The position numbers were made by a program, and so were the translations under genes. A stretch of 64,000 bases of DNA, from NCBI GenBank assembly GCA_000092065.1, contig CP000588.1; one strand, 5' to 3'. Each line of letters begins with the position of its first letter. Within the stretch, counting starts at the first letter, position 1. This stretch comes from Ostreococcus lucimarinus (taxonomy: Eukaryota). Positions 26,440 through 33,703 of this stretch are shown here, piece by piece. The notes beneath the pieces are model-generated. The model searched no databases and was not told where the DNA came from. It was given only the letters and a program-made list of their open reading frames with translations.

Positions 26440-28149
26440 CTACAGCGGCCAGTCTGGAAGTGGTCCGGGTACATATTCGCAATGAAATCCGTACGGTACG
26501 CGCATTGGAATATGCACGACGCACTGCGTCGTGAGTTCGTCGCCCGAGGCGTCTAAAATTAATAACTCTGCTCGAGGCTCTTCACCGTCGACGTCGAGGT
26601 GTGTCAACACGAGCAAATAACCGTCGTCTTCGCGCGCGGCATCTTTCGAAGGAACGAAAATAATGTCACCACACGTGACACCTTCACCTAATTCGTATCG
26701 AGTCGTCACTCCTGACTGTAGGTCGTGCTTGAGTACGGCGTCGAACAGAGGAATGTCCATGCGCGACTTTGGTTCGGTGCCCAATTTGTACGCCACCGAG
26801 TACGCGAAGCGGTACTTTAAGCCAGTGTACTTGCGGTTAATACACGGAAAGTCGGAAGTCTGTTCGCATAGGCGCTTGCTCGATATTATCGCGTTAGCGT
26901 CGGTGTCGATTTGCCATCTCCACAACGCCGCAACGTCGCGACCGGCGTTCACTGGATTCTTCGCCGGCGTTGAACGCGGCACGTTCGACTCTTGGCACAT
27001 CCCCAACGCGTTCGTTTCGTCGGCTTTGCACACATCCAACGTCAGAATATTTCCTTCTTCGTACGCGTTCACGACGTGATACGCAAAGCACGTCTCGCCA
27101 GTGTCAATCCAAAACGGCCCTTCCTCACCTCTTCGTGGGAGATATCCGATACGCAACGTGCATTCTCTTTCAAAGCTAAACGGCAGTCCGCCTTCGATGA
27201 CGCGCGGCAAGTTGAAGATCAACGGCCCATCGATCAGCACCGTCTTTGTCGGCGTGATGGCGACGTCGTGTTGCATCGAGGGTCGAGGCACTTTAAATTG
27301 CCGCCGGTGCGTGCGTTTCCCCGTCTCGCCGTCGATCACGCCAACCGTGATCGTCGTCTGCCCATCCTGCTCGCCGCTCAGCGCCACGAGATTGTACCCG
27401 ATGTAAATTAACTCGTCCGTCATCGGGCACGTCTTCGAATGCGCGGTGAAATTGTCCAGCCAATAATCCATCGTGCCAAACGTCTGATTGAAATCGCACA
27501 GCCCTTTCGTGCGCAGCGTCGGCTCTAACGCGATCTCGTACGGCGAACCGCTCTCGTACGTCGCTAACAATCGCCCCGCATGATGCGTCAATCCGTTACT
27601 ACTCGTATTCTTGGACTGAATGACGAAGAACGCCGAATCCGGCTGCCGAACGTCCAAGGTCATCTTTTCCAACAACCTCGGCAGCAAGTACCGCCAAATC
27701 GGATTTATATCCCGGAGCCCCGTGTACAGCGCCGCGTTCGCCTTTTCTTCTCGCTCGAAACCGCGCGTGCGCACGTACCGCCTTGTATACTCCGCTCGTT
27801 CGCCCTCGCCGCGCAAACGAATCGCGTGCACCATGCCGTCGCCGTCGAACCAGTGATACCGATTCGTCCCGAGCGCCGGTCGAAATCGCGCGTTCGGGCC
27901 GTTCCGCAGGTACAACCCGTCCAAATCGTCCGGCAACCGCCCGCGCGCGACGACGCACGCGACGGGCGTCTCGAGCTCGCCCTCCACCGGCGCGAAGTTC
28001 CCAGATAACGCCGGGTTCGTCGTCGCGTCGTCGTCGAGCCACCGCGGCGCGCGCGAGATCGCGCGCGCGCGCGTCCCGGACGCATCGCTCGACCGCTCGC
28101 GCCGCGCGTCGACGCCCGCGGCGGCGCGCGAGACGCACAGCGCGCGCAT
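26440..28149 (-). CDS. carotenoid cleavage dioxygenase (CCD/NCED, RPE65 family)
   Basis: FAPVEGELETP, LDGLYLRNGPNARF, HWFDGDGMVHA and the iron-binding His signature match this family. The track ORF 26440–28743 carries a Ser-rich low-complexity N-terminal extension. The likely start is MRALCVSRAAAG at ~28149, giving about 570 aa. Confidence 0.8.
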   Translation of the reverse strand: MRALCVSRAAAGVDARRERSSDASGTRARAISRAPRWLDDDATTNPALSGNFAPVEGELETPVACVVARGRLPDDLDGLYLRNGPNARFRPALGTNRYHWFDGDGMVHAIRLRGEGERAEYTRRYVRTRGFEREEKANAALYTGLRDINPIWRYLLPRLLEKMTLDVRQPDSAFFVIQSKNTSSNGLTHHAGRLLATYESGSPYEIALEPTLRTKGLCDFNQTFGTMDYWLDNFTAHSKTCPMTDELIYIGYNLVALSGEQDGQTTITVGVIDGETGKRTHRRQFKVPRPSMQHDVAITPTKTVLIDGPLIFNLPRVIEGGLPFSFERECTLRIGYLPRRGEEGPFWIDTGETCFAYHVVNAYEEGNILTLDVCKADETNALGMCQESNVPRSTPAKNPVNAGRDVAALWRWQIDTDANAIISSKRLCEQTSDFPCINRKYTGLKYRFAYSVAYKLGTEPKSRMDIPLFDAVLKHDLQSGVTTRYELGEGVTCGDIIFVPSKDAAREDDGYLLVLTHLDVDGEEPRAELLILDASGDELTTQCVVHIPMRVPYGFHCEYVPGPLPDWPL

Positions 28150-28198
28150 CGCGAACGCGAGGACGAATTCGACGCTCGACGCGTCACTCACTGACGCG

Positions 28199-29051
28199 AT
28201 GACGACCGCGCACCGACCGACGTGGGCGCCGGCGAAGGGAAAGGAACACCAAGGCGGCGCGCGCCTGTTCGGACCGAGCGCCAAGCACAGCAAACTCGAC
28301 GCGAATGGATTCATGACGCTGAAGACGAGACACGAATCGCAATCGGGCGCGGACGCGCTGCTCGCGCGGGATTTGCGCGCTGAGCTCGAGGAAAAGGAAC
28401 GACGGGCGAAAGGAAAGGGCGCGATCGCGGGCGCGGACGTGAAGGAGACGATCGCGGCGCTGGGGAGCGGGGCGAGCGATGATGGTGGACGGTTTCGAAC
28501 GCGAGCGGAGGACGCGGACGACGACGCGAGCGCGAGCGGGAGCGACGACGAGAGCGATTCGGGGAGCGATGATGAGAGCGATGGTGCGTGTGCGATGTTT
28601 TCGTCTCTCGCGAACGATGGCGCGGCGCGCGATGCGATGCGAGACGCGAGACGCGAGACGCGAGACGCGAGACCCGACGACGCGAGGCGACGGCTGACTA
28701 ACCCTACCACGCTCTCGATTCGCAGACGACGACACGGCCGCACTCTTGGCCGAGCTCGAGCGCATCAAGAGCGAACGCGCGGAAGAAGCGCGTTTGAAAG
28801 CCGAGGCCGAGGCGTCGGAGGCTTTCGAGCGACAAAAAGACGAATTAGCGACGGGGAACCCGTTATTGGACCTCGCGACTGGCGGCGCCGGCGCGAGCGC
28901 GGGCGGCGACTTTAGGACGAAACGGCGCTGGGACGACGACGTCGTGTTCCGCAACCAAGCGCGCGACGAGCCCAAGGTTGGGAAGCGTTTCATCAACGAC
29001 ACCATTCGAAGCGATTTCCACAAGAGGTTTTTGAACAAGTACATCAAGTAG
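28199..29051 (+). CDS. CWC15: spliceosome-associated protein CWC15; join(28199..28583,28726..29051)
   Basis: The N-terminus [27 protein letters not shown] matches CWC15 MTTAARPT(F/W)EPA…. The C-terminal ORF is in another frame (…[14 protein letters not shown]…[17 protein letters not shown]). A 142-bp intron (GTGCGT donor, CTGAC branch, CGCAG acceptor) splices the two to give …SDDESD|[20 protein letters not shown], which matches human [23 protein letters not shown]. The intron contains (GCGAGAC)5. Confidence 0.85.
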
Positions 29052-29206
29052 CCCGCCGCGAAAAATGATTTTTATCTCACGACGACGATGACGACGATGA
29101 CGTGAAGATGACGTGAAGGTCGACGCCGTGCGCGCCGCACTCCGCGACTCGCTCGCGCGGACGACGATCGACCGACCCACGCGCACGCGCACACGTCTTA
29201 AAAACC

Positions 29207-30274
29207 ATGCGAACCGCGATGATGCACGCCGTGCGCGCGTACGCCCGCCCCGCGTCCGCGAGCCGCCGACCAACCCTCGGTCGCCAATCCATCGCCGCGC
29301 CGCGTCGTGGTTTCACCGTCTCCGCGCGCGCTTCGGATAAGACGGTGGAGAAGGGCGATGCCGTCGCGATTCACTACGTCGGCACGCTCGAGGACGGCAC
29401 GACGTTCGACAGCTCGAGAGAACGAAACGAACCGATTAAATTCACCGTCGGCAGCGGGATGATGATCCCTGGGTTCGACAAGGGCGTCCTCGGATTGGCT
29501 GTCGGTCAAAGCAAGACGATCAAATGCGCGCCCGCGGATGCGTACGGGGAGGTGCGACCGGAAAATATCCTCAGAGTGCCGAAGAAGGACGTCGTGGACG
29601 CGGTGGGTGAAGATTTCGTCAAAGTTGGCGAAAAGCTGATGGTCGGACAAGGCATGCCGGCGGAGATCATCGAGGTGACGGACAGTGAGGTGGCGCTGGA
29701 CGCCAATCACCCGTTGGCCGGGAAGACGTTGAACTTTGATATCGAGCTCATGAGCTTGGACCGACTCGAGGTGAAGCACCGAGATAAGTTCAAGTGCTAT
29801 TTTGACATCACCATCGGCGGCGAAGCCGCGGGGCGAGTCACTATGGAGATTCGCGGCGACGTCACGCCCAAGTGCGGGGAGAACTTCAGGCAGTTGTGCA
29901 CCGGTGAGGCTGGATTCGGATACAAGGGTTCTCCGTTTCATCGCGTGATCCCGGGTTTCATGTGCCAAGGTGGGGATTTCACCAACCGCAACGGCACGGG
30001 CGGCAAGTCCATCTTCGGCAACAAGTTTGAAGACGAAAACTTCACCTTGAAGCACACGGGACCGGGGATTTTGTCCATGGCGAACGCCGGACCGAACACG
30101 AACGGCTCGCAGTTTTTCTTGTGCACGGCTGAAACCGCTTGGTTGGACGGTAAGCACACCGTCTTCGGCTCCGTCATCGACGGCATGGACGTCGTTAAGA
30201 AGGTTGAAGCCGTTGGCTCGCAATCCGGCGCCACGTCCGCGGAAGTTCTCATCGCCGATTGCGGCGAGCTTTAG
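29207..30274 (+). CDS. dual-family immunophilin: SlyD-type FKBP PPIase domain (with IF insert) fused to a cyclophilin-type PPIase domain, with transit-peptide-like N-terminus
   Basis: 355-aa ORF. The FKBP part is [21 protein letters not shown]…[23 protein letters not shown] with the insert-in-flap (…[18 protein letters not shown]). The cyclophilin part is [17 protein letters not shown]…[16 protein letters not shown]…[23 protein letters not shown]…. Confidence 0.8.
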
Positions 30275-30388: not shown

Positions 30389-32149
30389 TTACGCGTCGTC
30401 GCTCGACGGCCCAGCCGCGCGCAAGTTTTCTAAATCTTTCTCGTCATCATCGCCGATGGGGGTCAACTCCACATCCCTATACTCTTCGCCGTTCGCTGGC
30501 GTCGTCTCGTGAGCATCCGCGCTCCCTCCGGCGTCGCTCGTGTTGACGGGCGACCACGCTCCGTGCGCAGGCGCGCCGCCGAACGTCGGTATCATAAAAT
30601 TGTTCTCTAAATCGTCCCACCACTCGAACAATCTTGCCTTGACGCGAAAAGCTATGGAAAGGTACCAAATCGGGTGACCATCTGCGAGTGCCCGCGCGCG
30701 CACGGCACGAGCGCGCGGCGATGGGTTGATGAAACCCAAGCCATCGTGCGCGGTCGCGCTCATCGCCGAGCTCACCATGCCCTCTCTGTCGCTCGGGTCG
30801 TGCAAGCCGAGATGTTTCATCAACGGTAGCGTGGCGCCGCCGAGAACTAGGGTAGAAACTAAGCAAATCACCAACGTCCCGGTCTCGACCGCGCGCGATC
30901 CTTGCTCGCCTGGTCGCGTCGACGGCATGTTTACGGCCAAGGCGTATGCGACGGCGCCTCGCAAACCGCACGCCGCGTGCATGACTTGAACGTTCCGGGG
31001 AATAGGCGTCTCTCGCAGTGTGTTCGCCAAACGACTGAGTGGAAATATATTCACAGCTCGAGCCGCCATGGCGAGAGGGATGCCCGTGAGCAAAATCCCA
31101 AAATCCCACAAATGATCAAACGTCGCGACTTGCATGCCGAGATAGGCAAACACAAAGGTTTCGGATAAAAACGCCGCCGCCTCGAACGATTTAAACACAG
31201 CAATTTGGGCCTCTTCGCCGACGTTATGGTACGAGTAATGCGCGTTGCCGATACCCGTGAAAAATATGCTCATAATTCCGCTCATGCCCACGTTTTCCGC
31301 CAAGACGTACGAAAAGTACCCCGAGATGAGCAACAGCGCAAACGTGTACGCCGTGCCGTTGTACGACGCCGCCACGTTCGGCGGCGCTTCCGCCAATCCC
31401 AAAGTCTTCAGCAACAGCGCCGTACCGAGCGCGATCGCGATCCCGATGAGCAACGATCCGATGGAAACGAGTATGAATTGCCCTATGACGGTCCAAAACG
31501 TCGAAACCGTAAACTCTTGCTCGTAAAACTCCGCCAACGTGCGAAACAAGACCACGGCGACGGCGTCGTTCAAAACGCTTTCACCAAAAACTAAATTATA
31601 CAACAAAGGCGGCGCCGAGACGTCCGCAAAAACGCTCAGCGTCGCCACGGGATCGGTGGACGAAATCAACGTCCCGTACAACAGACACTCCAACAACGGA
31701 TTCGACCCGAGATGTTTCCTCGCAATCACGCCAATCTCCACCAGCACGAACGTGCTCAGCCCGAACACGAAGCTCGAGATCACCGTCCCCACGAACGCGA
31801 ACAGCGCGATGGTGAAAAAATCCGCGAAGAAATCCCGTCGCTTCAGGTTCAATCCCGCGCTGTAGATGATGATCGGCAACAACCCATAAAAGAACGCCTG
31901 CGGCGAAAATTGAAACGCCGCCACGTCCGCGCCTCGCGCCGTCTTCGCGCGCGCGACGGCGCCGAACGCGACGCCCACGATCAGCGCCGCCCCGCTCGGC
32001 TGCACCGCGCGCACGTTATACCGCTGTATGACGTAGCTCACGACGACGCACACCATGAGCAACAGCGTCGGGACGAGCGCGCTGTACCGATCGAGCGCCT
32101 CCGCGTCGCCGTGGCTCGGCATCGGCGGCGCTCCGGGCGTCGTCGACAT
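30389..32149 (-). CDS. NHX: Na+/H+ exchanger (CPA1 / NHX-type)
   Basis: The track ORF 30389–32998 has an Arg-rich extension that is probably non-coding. The likely ATG is at ~32149 (MSTTPGAPPMPSHG). The protein has 10–12 TM helices and the NHE motifs LNDAVAVVLF and FFYGLLPIIIYSAGLNLKRRDFF. Confidence 0.8.
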   Translation of the reverse strand: MSTTPGAPPMPSHGDAEALDRYSALVPTLLLMVCVVVSYVIQRYNVRAVQPSGAALIVGVAFGAVARAKTARGADVAAFQFSPQAFFYGLLPIIIYSAGLNLKRRDFFADFFTIALFAFVGTVISSFVFGLSTFVLVEIGVIARKHLGSNPLLECLLYGTLISSTDPVATLSVFADVSAPPLLYNLVFGESVLNDAVAVVLFRTLAEFYEQEFTVSTFWTVIGQFILVSIGSLLIGIAIALGTALLLKTLGLAEAPPNVAASYNGTAYTFALLLISGYFSYVLAENVGMSGIMSIFFTGIGNAHYSYHNVGEEAQIAVFKSFEAAAFLSETFVFAYLGMQVATFDHLWDFGILLTGIPLAMAARAVNIFPLSRLANTLRETPIPRNVQVMHAACGLRGAVAYALAVNMPSTRPGEQGSRAVETGTLVICLVSTLVLGGATLPLMKHLGLHDPSDREGMVSSAMSATAHDGLGFINPSPRARAVRARALADGHPIWYLSIAFRVKARLFEWWDDLENNFMIPTFGGAPAHGAWSPVNTSDAGGSADAHETTPANGEEYRDVELTPIGDDDEKDLENLRAAGPSSDDA

Positions 32150-32314
32150 CGACGGTCGACGAATCACGAATCCGTCTTCCCCGTCGGCGCGCGTCGCGTC
32201 GCGCGTCGCGCGATGTCGACTCGAAATCGACGAATTCACGACGCTTCGACGGACGCGAGAAAGATTCAAACCGAACCGCAGTCTTGGGCGCGCGTCGACG
32301 CGACGCCGACGCCG

Positions 32315-33703
32315 ATGACGACGACGGCGCGCGACGACGCGCGGTGCGACGACGACGCGCGACGCGCGCGCGCGTACGTCTCGCGATGGGCCGCGCGCGA
32401 CGCCGCGAGCGCGCGAGGGACGACGCCGAAAGCGATGCGCATGGCGCTCGGCGCCGTCGACGACGCGGTGTCGCACCGCGCGTTCGTCGACGCGGTGAAG
32501 ACGCTGGCGCGCGAAGACGCGAAAGAAGCAAAGGATGGAACTCGCGTGCGATTGGTGTGCGAACGGACGACGACGGAGGCGAACGGGATGGGGAGGAGGG
32601 TGACGCGGCGAGTCGCGCGCGAGGCGGAGGCGGACGAACGCGTCGCGGGCGCGGTGAAGACGACGGCGAGCGGGGGGGACGAAGCGTGCGCGATGGTGTA
32701 CGAAGACGAACAGAGGATAAAACGCGAGATGTATGACGCGCCGAACGAGGAGATGAACGCGTTTCGGGAGAATAAGTACGGGACGGTGACGTGCGAGACG
32801 GCGACGAGAAACGCCGAACGCGGACGACGAGGCGCGAGCGACGCGCGAGCGGCGAACGGGACGGCGGTGAAGACGAACGGGGCGTCCAAGGCGAGCGTCG
32901 CGGGGACGCCTGCGGTGGCGACGCCGAAGGAGGGTGGGGCGACCGCCGCGGGCAGGTCGGCGGCGAAGCAAAAGGACGCGGGCGCGAAGAAGAACCATTC
33001 GTTGATGTCGATGTTCGCCAACGCGCCGAAGCCCAAGGCGAAGGCGGCGACGACGAGCGAAGCGCCGAAGCGCGCCGCGGTGGCGGAGGTGAAGAAAGAA
33101 AAGGCGCCGACGCCGAAGAAGAAGGCGCCAGCGAGCGCGGAGGCGGCGATTTTAGCCGCCGAAGAGGATGAGAGCGACGACGACGATTCGGACGACGAAA
33201 TCGGCGGCGCGAAGCGCAAGCCGCGTAAAAAGCGCGCGATTACGATCGAGTCCGAAGACGAGGAGGAAGACGAGGAGGAAGACATGGAAATTGTCGACGA
33301 TGAACCCGAACCCGAACCGACGCCAAAATCGACGCCCAAGAAGACGCCCAAGTCGACGCCCAAGAAGAAGACGCCCAAGTCGACGCCCAAGAAGACGCCG
33401 CCGTCTTCCAAGCGCAAGACGCCGTCGACGCCGATCAACGACGAAAACGACGAGAACGCGTCAGATGTCGCTCCAAGCGAACCGAACTCGCGCCCGCAAT
33501 CGGCGTCGAAGAAGCACAAGAAGGAAAAGCCGCTCTCGAAAAAGGCGTTACTGGCGCGACGAATCAAGAAAACCGTCGAGGAGATGGACGAAGAGACGGG
33601 CGAGGAAATCATGAGGACGTTTTTCGTCGACGAGTTCGACAACGAGCTCAACGAAGACGGCACTTACAAAGATCCTGATAACGTGAAGACGGCCACGGCG
33701 TGA
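32315..33703 (+). CDS. K/E-rich nuclear protein, possibly DNA polymerase delta subunit 3 (POLD3/Cdc27-like)
   Basis: The internal ATG at 32315 lies in ORF 31712–33703. The protein has acidic runs and repeated TPKSTPKK motifs. The C-terminal end KKALLARRIKKTVEEMDEETGEEIMRTFF resembles the conserved POLD3 C-terminus and a PIP-like box. The assignment is weak. Confidence 0.3.
   Translation: MTTTARDDARCDDDARRARAYVSRWAARDAASARGTTPKAMRMALGAVDDAVSHRAFVDAVKTLAREDAKEAKDGTRVRLVCERTTTEANGMGRRVTRRVAREAEADERVAGAVKTTASGGDEACAMVYEDEQRIKREMYDAPNEEMNAFRENKYGTVTCETATRNAERGRRGASDARAANGTAVKTNGASKASVAGTPAVATPKEGGATAAGRSAAKQKDAGAKKNHSLMSMFANAPKPKAKAATTSEAPKRAAVAEVKKEKAPTPKKKAPASAEAAILAAEEDESDDDDSDDEIGGAKRKPRKKRAITIESEDEEEDEEEDMEIVDDEPEPEPTPKSTPKKTPKSTPKKKTPKSTPKKTPPSSKRKTPSTPINDENDENASDVAPSEPNSRPQSASKKHKKEKPLSKKALLARRIKKTVEEMDEETGEEIMRTFFVDEFDNELNEDGTYKDPDNVKTATA

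What the first reader, a model, noticed from the sequence alone, without database searches (positions are those of the whole stretch)
29207..30274. Fusion of a SlyD-type FKBP (with insert-in-flap chaperone domain) to a full cyclophilin in one polypeptide
Dual-family immunophilins (FCBPs) are rare. They are reported from Toxoplasma and a few bacteria. Here, a SlyD/FkpB-like FKBP with the IF insert (…[16 protein letters not shown]…) runs directly into a complete cyclophilin A-like domain, with no TPR linker. The N-terminus looks like an organellar presequence. That combination would be an unusual plastid or mitochondrial folding catalyst.
Basis: partly seen in the sequence, partly recalled or inferred. 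Interest (0 to 1): 0.55.

Follow-up and report, generated by a model that had tools for sequence, protein, structure and literature searches.

The report
Green-algal FKBP-chaperone–cyclophilin fusion enzyme
This Ostreococcus gene really does encode one protein that joins a bacterial-type prolyl isomerase with a built-in chaperone domain directly to a human-like cyclophilin behind an organelle-targeting leader; it is conserved across early-branching green algae and its O. tauri counterpart was already noted in 2009, so it is real and under-described but not new.

Summary
Window 29207-30274 (+) is one uninterrupted 355-codon ORF. [quoted passage not shown] There are no TPRs.

The window is almost certainly Ostreococcus lucimarinus CCE9901. 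Its public model (XP_001419236.1, 174 aa) starts at internal Met182 and misses the FKBP half.

The fusion is not an artefact. The same continuous ORF occurs in O. tauri (syntenic), Micromonas, Bathycoccus, Pyramimonas, Cymbomonas, Tetraselmis, Pycnococcus and Pseudoscourfieldia, including complete MMETSP transcripts. Both halves are under purifying selection, while the leader evolves freely.

The closest standalone FKBP-IF relatives are ~142-aa bacterial proteins. None of the 80 best bacterial loci has an adjacent cyclophilin.

It is most likely an organelle-targeted folding catalyst. Mitochondrial matrix is slightly favoured over plastid stroma, but this is unresolved.

Krücken et al. (2009) already listed the O. 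tauri orthologue as a TPR-less FCBP with a bacterial-like FKBP and a predicted mitochondrial signal, whereas later reviews say all FCBPs carry 3 TPRs. I rate it a new member of a known but uncharacterised kind, of moderate interest.

The parts
29207..30274 (+). Complete single-exon CDS (355 codons plus TAG) for the presequence-FKBP(IF)-linker-cyclophilin protein
   Evidence: ORF list and sequence; both Pfam domains lie in one frame; syntenic 355-aa gene in O. tauri chr 8
29207..29335 (+). Residues 1-43: putative cleavable organellar presequence (10 basic residues to 1 acidic, A/S/T-rich, no hydrophobic stretch; carries an RGF-T motif)
   Evidence: AF2 pLDDT about 30 for residues 1-41. Composition was compared across 15 orthologues, whose extensions are 44-85 residues long and variable. 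dN/dS is about 1, against 0.06-0.15 in the domains. An [RKH]x[FYL][ASTVF] motif is present in 37/45 orthologues. A mitochondrial signal was predicted for the O. tauri orthologue (PMC2713222)
29336..29566 (+). Residues 44-120: FKBP core, N-terminal part, with active-site residues Y57, F67, D68, R73, I77, M86, I87, F90 and Y113
   Evidence: Pfam FKBP_C; mapping onto FKBP12; alignments to FKBP12-IF chimeras, SlpA and SlyD
29567..29701 (+). [quoted passage not shown]
   Evidence: Corresponds to E. coli SlyD residues 76-120 in the alignment. AF2 secondary structure gives E121-125, H126-133, E143-146, E150-157 and E161-165. Foldseek matches two-domain FKBP-IF structures
29702..29761 (+). Residues 166-185: hinge motif NHPLAG and the last FKBP strand (F177 = FKBP12 F99). 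Met182 (29750-29752) is where the public O. lucimarinus model starts
29762..29788 (+). Residues 186-194: short interdomain linker [10 protein letters not shown]186 and K190 are present in 48/48 orthologues and H191 in 43/48, with no length variation
   Evidence: Alignments A1 and A2. The NHPLAG-to-ENFR spacing is 58 residues in 45/46 sequences. The AF2 model shows 8 non-strand residues between E175-185 and E194-203, with block pLDDT 82-93
29789..30271 (+). Residues 195-355: CypA/CypD-like cyclophilin domain without the plant 'divergent loop'. Contains R246, F251, M252, Q254, A292, N293, A294, Q302, F304, W312, L313 and H317
   Evidence: Pfam Pro_isomerase; PDB hits to CypD/CypA at E 8e-79, gapless; Foldseek target-normalised TM about 0.9; residue mapping

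Best explanation
This is one nuclear gene of Ostreococcus (almost certainly O. lucimarinus CCE9901). It encodes an organelle-targeted prolyl isomerase/chaperone built from three modules.

Shown:
- A variable, basic, disordered N-terminal extension precedes the folded part.
- A bacterial-type FKBP follows, with a SlyD/SlpA-like insert-in-flap chaperone domain.
- A 10-residue, length-invariant, sequence-conserved linker joins it to a eukaryotic CypA/CypD-type cyclophilin.
- Both active sites have their canonical residues, and both domains are under purifying selection.
- The fusion is conserved across Mamiellophyceae, Pyramimonadophyceae, Pycnococcaceae/Pseudoscourfieldia and Tetraselmis.

Inferred:
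- The extension is a cleavable presequence that delivers the ~34-kDa mature protein to the mitochondrial matrix (slightly favoured) or the plastid stroma.
- There the IF domain captures unfolded, newly imported or newly made polypeptides through exposed hydrophobic segments. It then hands their Xaa-Pro bonds to the adjacent FKBP site, as in SlyD/SlpA.
- The tethered cyclophilin supplies a second isomerase site with broader sequence tolerance.
- The short conserved linker keeps the cyclophilin close to the chaperone/FKBP unit, so one bound client can probably be worked on by both catalysts.
- The fusion most likely arose once in an early chlorophyte, by joining a bacterial-derived FKBP-IF gene to a host cyclophilin gene.
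For: - The ORF and both domain calls are solid.
- The IF domain is supported by sequence and by predicted fold.
- All 12 CypA catalytic/CsA-contact residues checked are conserved. The FKBP12 residues Y26, F36, D37, R42, I56, Y82 and F99 are conserved, and F46, V55 and W59 are conservatively replaced by I, M and F. These positions are invariant or more than 90% conserved in 49 orthologues.
- The linker is fixed in length and conserved.
- dN/dS is 0.10-0.15 for FKBP-IF, 0.06-0.07 for the cyclophilin and about 1 for the leader.
- Full-length orthologues and complete transcripts exist in at least nine green-algal genera.
- Synteny with O. tauri is RPE65 / CWC15 / fusion gene / Na-H exchanger.
- The leader has net charge +8 to +14, no hydrophobic core and variable length, with an RxF-type motif in 37/45 orthologues.
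- PSORT II and MitoProt II predicted a mitochondrial signal for the O. tauri orthologue (PMC2713222).
- Literature on IF function: chaperone-domain insertion turns FKBP12 into an efficient folding catalyst by binding folding protein chains and transferring them to the isomerase site (PMC11013033); SlyD substrate and FK506 binding are described in PMC5034536.
- The nearest standalone FKBP-IF proteins are ~142-aa bacterial proteins at 43-55% identity, and none has a neighbouring cyclophilin.
Against: - There is no experimental datum for this protein or any orthologue: no activity, drug sensitivity, localisation or mature N-terminus.
- The AF2 full-length model has pTM 0.57, and no error matrix or coordinates were available. 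The relative domain orientation, and therefore 'the IF domain serves both sites', is untested.
- The 2009 mitochondrial prediction used tools that do not model plastid transit peptides. The leader is also compatible with a green-algal stromal VxA-type cleavage site.
- W59F and F46I in the FKBP pocket may weaken FK506 binding.
- dS is saturated, so the dN/dS values are rough.
Confidence: 0.65

Rival explanations
1. The two halves are separate genes or products, as the public annotations imply: a cyclophilin-only protein starting at Met182 (O. lucimarinus XP_001419236.1) and an FKBP-only protein (O. tauri BE221DRAFT_73235, 'partial'). On this view the continuous ORF is coincidental read-through.
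For: Two deposited gene models split the locus this way. Met182 exists in frame.
Against: No stop codon separates the domains in O. lucimarinus, O. tauri or Micromonas DNA, nor in any of 46-49 orthologues. Only 10 conserved residues separate them, which leaves no room for a terminator, promoter or UTR. Position 182 is V or T in 4 of 48 orthologues, including Micromonas polaris and one Ostreococcus-like metagenomic protein; it lies in the last FKBP strand, equivalent to a Leu in FKBP12. Complete MMETSP transcripts carry both domains. The O. tauri RCC4221, M. pusilla, Bathycoccus and Pycnococcus models are full length.
Confidence: 0.03
2. It is the same fused folding catalyst, but it resides in the plastid stroma rather than the mitochondrion.
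For: The family was found only in photosynthetic green algae. Leaders in Pyramimonas, Tetraselmis and Bathycoccus are 66-85 residues long and Ser/Thr/Ala-rich, which is typical of transit peptides. Many end in a (V/A/C)-x-A motif just before the mature domain, compatible with stromal processing (motif knowledge is my own). Krücken et al. suggested a cyanobacterial origin for the FKBP half, and cyanobacterial homologues are about as similar (45-47%) as alphaproteobacterial ones.
Against: PSORT II and MitoProt II called a mitochondrial signal for OtCPR7. A conserved [RK]-x-F-[AST] motif resembles the plant/yeast -3R matrix-peptidase site (motif knowledge is my own). The Ostreococcus leaders are short (about 44 aa) and Arg-rich. 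The top named bacterial relatives are Rhodobacteraceae. None of this is decisive.
Confidence: 0.35
3. The N-terminal extension is not a targeting signal and the protein is a cytosolic dual PPIase, like the apicomplexan FCBPs.
For: The known FCBPs have no organellar signal, according to PMC2713222. No targeting predictor could be run here.
Against: Every orthologue keeps a 44-85-residue, acid-poor, basic, disordered extension despite near-neutral sequence evolution. That is the signature of a composition-constrained presequence.
Confidence: 0.07
4. The cyclophilin half acts mainly as a regulator, in the manner of CypD on the permeability transition and ATP synthase or plant ROC4 on redox and cysteine synthesis. 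On this view the FKBP-IF merely anchors or recruits it, and the protein is not a general folding catalyst.
For: The best PDB matches are to mitochondrial CypD, by a small margin over CypA (268.7 vs 258 bits). Cysteines corresponding to CypA C62, C115 and C161 are present.
Against: The margin over CypA is trivial. The IF chaperone domain and the FKBP pocket are themselves strongly conserved, which argues that they are functional and not just a tether. There is no evidence for specific partners.
Confidence: 0.1

Closest known systems
Ostreococcus tauri 'OtCPR7' (CEG01623.1 / XP_022841068.1 / A0A090M8Z0), listed by Krücken et al. 2009 (PMC2713222)
   Same: Orthologue: 355 aa, 79% identity, identical architecture and synteny. 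It is described as an FCBP without TPRs, with an FKBP close to bacterial FKBPs, an independent origin in Chlorophyta and a predicted mitochondrial signal.
   Different: The 2009 gene model had a truncated cyclophilin domain. The passages of that paper retrieved here do not mention the IF chaperone insert, the conserved linker or the distribution across green algae. Nothing has been tested experimentally.
Toxoplasma gondii FCBP57 and other eukaryotic FCBPs (FKBP-3TPR-CYN; Adams et al. 2005; Barik reviews PMC6316441 and PMC5852385)
   Same: Same domain order, FKBP then a Cyp_ABH-type cyclophilin, in one polypeptide of a unicellular eukaryote.
   Different: Those proteins have a three-TPR linker, a plain FKBP without an IF domain, are ~520 aa long and have no organellar leader. 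Here the linker is 10 residues, the FKBP carries an IF domain and there is a leader. The origin is independent, according to PMC2713222.
Bacterial CFBPs (e.g. Flavobacterium johnsoniae CFBP39)
   Same: A dual-family immunophilin without TPRs.
   Different: The domain order is the opposite (CYN-linker-FKBP), and the linker is ~50 residues and intrinsically disordered. Here the linker is short, conserved and fixed in length.
E. coli SlpA/FkpB and SlyD, T. thermophilus SlyD, archaeal FKBP17/FKBP26
   Same: An FKBP fold with the IF chaperone domain inserted in the flap, plus the NHPLAG hinge motif.
   Different: Those are standalone prokaryotic proteins. SlyD has a His/Cys-rich metal-binding tail, where this protein has a cyclophilin instead. 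The NCBIfam equivalog scores fall below cut-off: PRK15095 scores 83 against a cut-off of 125, and PRK10737 scores 59.5 against 174. The FKBP core here keeps the FKBP12-like FDSSRxR motif.
Engineered FKBP12-IF chimeras (PDB 5i7p, 5i7q; Zoldak et al. 2024, PMC11013033)
   Same: These are the best sequence and fold matches to the N-terminal half (E 9e-29; TM 0.80). They combine an FKBP12-like core with a bacterial IF domain, which is what this natural protein looks like.
   Different: They are artificial constructs and have no cyclophilin.
Human cyclophilin D/A; yeast and Neurospora mitochondrial cyclophilins
   Same: The cyclophilin half is ~70% identical to CypA, aligns without gaps and has all the active-site residues checked, including the CsA-binding Trp. 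Mitochondrial cyclophilins speed the folding of imported proteins (established knowledge).
   Different: Those are single-domain proteins with no attached chaperone or FKBP.
Putative archaeal FCBPs (Methanococcoides burtonii, uncultured archaeon GZfos18C8; PMC2713222)
   Same: Reported as FKBP-then-Cyp proteins without TPRs.
   Different: Their cyclophilin domains form an unrelated cluster, according to that paper. They were not examined here.

Membership tests
Dual-family immunophilin, FCBP type (as defined by Adams 2005 and Barik 2018) | FKBP domain N-terminal and cyclophilin domain C-terminal in one polypeptide | tested here: met
   Pfam FKBP_C at 45-181 and Pro_isomerase at 198-353 in one ORF
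Dual-family immunophilin, FCBP type (as defined by Adams 2005 and Barik 2018) | [quoted passage not shown] | tested here: not met
   No TPR family is called. Only about 10 residues lie between the last FKBP strand and the first cyclophilin strand
Dual-family immunophilin, FCBP type (as defined by Adams 2005 and Barik 2018) | Both domains are enzymatically active and inhibited by FK506 and cyclosporin A respectively | not testable with these tools
   Only residue conservation could be checked. The cyclophilin site is complete; the FKBP site is complete apart from W59F, F46I and V55M
SlyD/SlpA-type FKBP with insert-in-flap domain | FKBP core fold with the catalytic pocket residues | tested here: met
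SlyD/SlpA-type FKBP with insert-in-flap domain | A chaperone (IF) domain of about 45 residues inserted in the flap loop, with a four-stranded sheet plus helix | tested here: met
   Full-length alignment to SlpA, SlyD and MtFKBP17. The AF2 model has pLDDT 93 and matches TtSlyD at TM 0.78-0.81, plus SlpA and MjFKBP26
SlyD proper (PRK10737) or FkpB/SlpA (PRK15095) equivalog | Score above the curated NCBIfam cut-off; for SlyD, also a C-terminal His/Cys-rich metal-binding tail | tested here: not met
   PRK15095 scores 83.4 bits against a cut-off of 125; PRK10737 scores 59.5 against 174. The C-terminus is a cyclophilin, not a metal-binding tail
Cyclophilin A-like (Cyp_ABH) single-domain-type cyclophilin | Full Pro_isomerase domain above the Pfam gathering score | tested here: met
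   158.3 bits against a cut-off of 21.7, profile positions 1-158 of 159
Cyclophilin A-like (Cyp_ABH) single-domain-type cyclophilin | Catalytic and CsA-contact residues R55, F60, M61, Q63, A101, N102, A103, Q111, F113, W121, L122 and H126 | tested here: met
   All 12 are conserved as R246...H317.
Plant-type cyclophilin with 'divergent loop' (ROC4 / cytosolic plant Cyps) | A 7-residue insertion (xSGKxLH) after the position equivalent to CypA residue 48 | tested here: not met
   The alignment to human CypA/CypD is gapless, while plant and nematode divergent-loop Cyps need 7-8 extra residues. The loop is present only in the Pycnococcus orthologue
Organelle-imported protein with cleavable presequence | An N-terminal extension that is basic, acid-poor, unstructured and poorly conserved in sequence but conserved in presence | tested here: met
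Organelle-imported protein with cleavable presequence | Demonstrated import and cleavage, and identity of the compartment | not testable with these tools
   No targeting predictor or experimental data were available. The only prediction is the 2009 PSORT II/MitoProt II call for the O. tauri orthologue

The most novel reading that the evidence does not exclude
This would be a third, structurally distinct class of dual-family immunophilin, restricted to early-diverging green algae. It would be an organellar machine in which a short, rigid, conserved linker fixes a cyclophilin next to an FKBP-IF unit, so that a single IF chaperone domain feeds unfolded clients to two mechanistically different prolyl isomerase sites. 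It would also be the only SlyD-like FKBP in regular use by a eukaryote.
Probability: 0.25. Interest if true: 0.55.

Novelty: new member of a known kind. Interest (0 to 1): 0.4.

Why it matters
Reviews of dual-family immunophilins recognise only two builds, CYN-linker-FKBP in bacteria and FKBP-3TPR-CYN in protists. [quoted passage not shown] This gene family shows a third build, conserved in at least nine genera of green algae: presequence, FKBP with an IF chaperone, a 10-residue linker, then a cyclophilin.

It is a natural counterpart of the engineered FKBP12-IF 'super-foldases' with a cyclophilin added. That offers a compact system for asking whether one chaperone domain can serve two different isomerase sites. 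It may also be a useful fusion or solubility module.

On the practical side, the public O. lucimarinus model (174 aa) and one O. tauri model (185 aa, partial) are wrong and should be merged into a 355-aa protein.

The significance is moderate. The parts are well understood, the O. tauri orthologue was noted in 2009, and no function has been shown.

Tried and rejected
- An exact-sequence look-up of the 174-aa Met182-to-stop product found no gene record. The source genome is therefore inferred from the exact match to XP_001419236.1 and from synteny with O. tauri.
- A Foldseek search with the full-length model returned only cyclophilin structures (query-normalised TM at most 0.43). No solved structure covers both halves.
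- The AFDB library was not available, so no UniProt-wide survey of the architecture by fold was possible.
- In the 1.84-billion-protein representative library, most high-scoring hits with two matched stretches looked like possible further fusions. The seven best of them checked by Pfam are tandem cyclophilins. One other (P0389) is a secreted, plain-FKBP-plus-Cyp protein of different build. Only one representative (P0017) has the full architecture.
- I looked for a prokaryotic precursor of the fusion. The 80 best bacterial/archaeal FKBP-IF loci have no cyclophilin within 1.5 kb.
- A donor lineage for the FKBP-IF half could not be resolved. Rhodobacteraceae, Bacteroidota, Collinsella, Desulfovibrionaceae, Chloroflexi and cyanobacteria all lie at 43-51% identity.
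- The antisense ORFs over the gene (29198-30223, 29938-30252 and 28863-29273, minus strand) have no Pfam match and are taken as GC-rich shadow ORFs.
- A paper on archaeal PPIase distribution had nothing on fusions.
- No targeting predictor (TargetP or PredAlgo) was available. My composition and motif analysis does not separate mitochondrion from plastid.
Full report
**1. The observation**

Window 29207-30274 (+) is a single ATG-to-TAG open reading frame of 355 codons. An in-frame stop lies 30 codons upstream, and the ATG sits in an A-rich context (aaaaaccATGcg).

Pfam calls two domains and nothing else:
- FKBP_C at residues 45-181 (E 8e-24). Profile positions 3-93 of 94 are stretched over 137 residues, which means an insertion of about 45 residues.
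- Pro_isomerase at residues 198-353 (E 2.4e-46, profile 1-158 of 159).

No TPR is called. GC3 is uniform along the ORF, at 0.76-0.79. The long antisense ORFs over the gene have no family match and are ordinary GC-rich shadow ORFs. The feature is real, lies at the stated coordinates and is far beyond chance.

**2. [quoted passage not shown]

Residues 43-193 align over their whole length, insert included, to three natural FKBP-IF proteins:
- E. coli SlpA/FkpB (2m2a/4dt4, E 2e-22)
- M. thermolithotrophicus FKBP17 (1ix5, E 9e-24)
- E. coli SlyD (2k8i/2kfw, E 1e-14)

The very best hits are the engineered FKBP12-IF chimeras 5i7p and 5i7q (E 9e-29). The reason is that the core keeps FKBP12-like motifs (FDSSRERN).

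An AF2 model of residues 44-192 has mean pLDDT 93. Its top Foldseek matches in the PDB are all two-domain FKBP-IF proteins:
- T. thermophilus SlyD 3luo (TM 0.78/0.81, rmsd 1.8 A over 146 columns)
- SlpA 4dt4
- M. jannaschii FKBP26
- E. coli SlyD
- MtFKBP17

By alignment to E. coli SlyD, the IF domain is residues 121-165. The model shows four strands and one helix there.

FKBP12 pocket residues map as follows: Y26->Y57, F36->F67, D37->D68, R42->R73, F46->I77, V55->M86, I56->I87, W59->F90, Y82->Y113, F99->F177.

NCBIfam equivalog cut-offs for FkpB and SlyD are not reached, and there is no SlyD-type metal-binding tail. The correct label is therefore 'short FKBP-IF of the SlpA/SlyD kind', not SlyD itself.

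**3. The C-terminal half is a canonical cyclophilin**

Residues 197-355 align without gaps to human CypD and CypA (E about 8e-79; about 70% identity to CypA). In the full-length model this half superposes on CypD/CypA with target-normalised TM about 0.9.

All twelve CypA catalytic and cyclosporin-contact residues are conserved, as R246...H317: R55, F60, M61, Q63, A101, N102, A103, Q111, F113, W121, L122 and H126. The plant-type 'divergent loop' is absent.

**4. One gene, not two**

The exact 174-residue sequence of O. lucimarinus CCE9901 XP_001419236.1 ('predicted protein') equals residues 182-355 of this ORF. The window is therefore almost certainly that genome. Its public model starts at an internal Met inside the last FKBP strand.

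Another deposited model, O. tauri BE221DRAFT_73235 (185 aa, 'partial'), holds only the FKBP half.

Against these split models:
- The O. tauri RCC4221 model (CEG01623.1, 355 aa, 79% identical) is full length. It sits in the same gene order (RPE65 / CWC15 / fusion gene / Na-H exchanger) as in the window.
- A Micromonas contig also has an uninterrupted fused ORF, next to CWC15.
- Complete MMETSP transcripts with both domains exist for Micromonas polaris, Tetraselmis striata, Pyramimonas parkeae and Pycnococcus provasolii.
- Full-length proteins are deposited for M. pusilla CCMP1545, Bathycoccus prasinos, Pyramimonas obovata, Cymbomonas tetramitiformis, Pycnococcus provasolii and Pseudoscourfieldia marina.
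- In 45 of 46 orthologues the spacing from NHPLAG to ENFR is exactly 58 residues. Linker residues R186, K190 and F195 are present in 48/48 and H191 in 43/48.
- Position 182 is V or T in 4 of 48 orthologues.
- Environmental Ostreococcus populations carry the same ORF with a single substitution on hundreds of contigs.

**5. Selection**

Nei-Gojobori estimates against O. tauri and Micromonas:

| Segment | dN/dS |
|---|---|
| Leader | about 1 |
| FKBP-IF | 0.10-0.15 |
| Cyclophilin | 0.06-0.07 |

dS is saturated, so these ratios are rough. Both catalytic halves are nevertheless maintained.

**6. The leader**

Residues 1-41 are predicted to be disordered, with pLDDT about 30. All 15 orthologues examined carry an extension of 44-85 residues. 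Each has 8-14 basic and 0-3 acidic residues, many Ala/Ser/Thr and no hydrophobic segment. This argues against a signal peptide or a lumenal bipartite signal.

An [RKH]-x-[FYL]-[ASTVF] motif lies 14-21 residues before the mature 'GD' in 37 of 45 orthologues. It resembles the -3R site of the mitochondrial processing peptidase (my own knowledge). The following (V/A/C)-x-A residues would equally suit a green-algal stromal cleavage site.

Krücken et al. reported a high-confidence mitochondrial signal for the O. tauri protein using PSORT II and MitoProt II. Neither tool models plastid transit peptides. I slightly favour the mitochondrial matrix and regard the plastid stroma as a live alternative.

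**7. Distribution and origin**

In a 1.84-billion-protein library clustered at 50% identity, only one representative (P0017) has the full architecture. The seven best two-stretch hits I checked are tandem cyclophilins. The family is therefore tight and, as far as names are available, confined to Chlorophyta:
- Mamiellophyceae
- Pyramimonadophyceae
- Pycnococcus / Pseudoscourfieldia
- Tetraselmis

No fused protein from Chlamydomonas, Chlorella or land plants appeared among the top hits, where a two-domain match would rank.

The closest standalone relatives of the FKBP-IF half are ~142-aa bacterial proteins at 43-55% identity, from Rhodobacteraceae, Bacteroidota, Collinsella, Desulfovibrionaceae, cyanobacteria and others. 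No donor clearly stands out. None of the 80 best prokaryotic loci has a cyclophilin within 1.5 kb.

The cyclophilin half is of the eukaryotic CypA type. The simplest reading is a single fusion, in an early chlorophyte, of a bacterial-derived FKBP-IF gene with a host cyclophilin gene.

**8. How it most likely works**

Established knowledge of the parts:
- IF domains bind unfolded chains and pass them to the adjacent FKBP site. Inserting them into FKBP12 converts a weak catalyst into an efficient, sequence-tolerant folding enzyme (PMC11013033; PMC5034536).
- Cyclophilins are broad-specificity prolyl isomerases, and mitochondrial ones accelerate the folding of imported proteins (my own knowledge).

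Inference for this protein: after import and leader removal, the ~34-kDa mature protein acts as a folding helper for imported or organelle-made polypeptides. The IF domain captures them and two different isomerase sites are within reach.

The short, length-invariant, conserved linker contrasts with the ~50-residue disordered linkers and the 3-TPR linkers of known dual-family immunophilins. It suggests a defined rather than floppy arrangement. That remains unproven, because the full-length model has pTM of only 0.57 and no error matrix was available.

**9. Comparison with what is known, and novelty**

By architecture this is a dual-family immunophilin with FCBP domain order. It fails the feature Barik treats as universal for FCBPs, the 3-TPR linker. 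It also differs from bacterial CFBPs in domain order and linker type.

It is not unreported, however. Krücken et al. 2009 (PMC2713222) listed the O. tauri orthologue, from a truncated model, as an FCBP without TPRs. They noted an FKBP domain near bacterial FKBPs, inferred an independent origin in Chlorophyta and predicted a mitochondrial signal.

Later reviews omit it. One states that FCBPs are unreported in plants.

What I add here:
- the IF-chaperone identity of the FKBP half
- the conserved fixed linker
- the breadth across green-algal classes
- the selection pattern
- the correction of the O. lucimarinus gene model

**10. Verdict**

The finding is real and correctly read, and it describes a neglected but already noted protein family. 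I rate it a new member of a known, uncharacterised kind. Interest is moderate (0.4).

Noticed in passing
window 29750-30274 (+): The public O. lucimarinus CCE9901 model XP_001419236.1 (174 aa) equals residues 182-355 of the ORF. It therefore starts at an internal Met in the last FKBP strand and omits the leader and the FKBP-IF half. O. tauri BE221DRAFT_73235 (185 aa, partial) makes the opposite error.
   Followed up: yes
window 28199-29051 (+): The upstream CWC15 (Cwf15/Cwc15) homologue is split between two reading frames. 28199-28915 matches profile positions 1-162 and 28746-29051 matches positions 148-244, which implies a short intron or a frameshift around 28746-28915.
   Followed up: no
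window 26440-28743 (-) and 30389-32998 (-): The flanking genes are an RPE65-type carotenoid oxygenase and a Na+/H+ exchanger. The order RPE65 / CWC15 / fusion gene / exchanger is identical on O. tauri chromosome 8 (L001). The mechanical ORFs here are much longer than the O. tauri models (767 vs 522 aa; 869 vs 578 aa), so their true starts probably lie further in.
   Followed up: partly
P0099 (MMETSP transcript, Micromonas-like): This transcript has the same leader and FKBP-IF half, but after 'ENFRQFCTGE' it continues into a different, Cyp40-like cyclophilin. It is probably a chimeric transcript assembly across a conserved stretch. Less likely, it is a real domain swap.
   Followed up: no
P0497 / GHP06931.1 (Pycnococcus provasolii): The fused cyclophilin of Pycnococcus carries the plant-type 'divergent loop' insertion (GEGSSGKDLH) that all other fused orthologues lack. 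This hints at gene conversion with a paralogue, or at loss of the loop elsewhere.
   Followed up: no
P0210, P0212 (SRA-derived assemblies): In these proteins an FKBP-IF domain (47-49% identical to this one) is followed by an FKBP12-like domain. This is another natural tandem of an IF-FKBP with a second isomerase. The source organism is unknown.
   Followed up: no
P0389 (ENA, 401 aa): This is a different FKBP-cyclophilin fusion: signal-peptide-like N-terminus, plain FKBP without an IF domain, a hydrophobic ~60-residue spacer, a cyclophilin and a Lys-rich tail. The source organism is unknown.
   Followed up: partly
P0088 (EukProt 'Prorocentrum cordatum') and P0534 (EukProt 'Pelagococcus subviridis'): These records fall in the same 90%-identity clusters as Pyramimonas obovata and Micromonas pusilla proteins respectively. 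They are probably green-algal contamination of those transcriptomes, not evidence that the fusion exists outside Chlorophyta.
   Followed up: no
P0214, P0216, P0224, P0228, P0238 (bacterial, about 200-235 aa): These lipoprotein-like bacterial FKBPs have the [11 protein letters not shown] strand before the FKBP core and the IF-like segment at the C-terminus. They look like circular permutations of the FKBP-IF fold.
   Followed up: no
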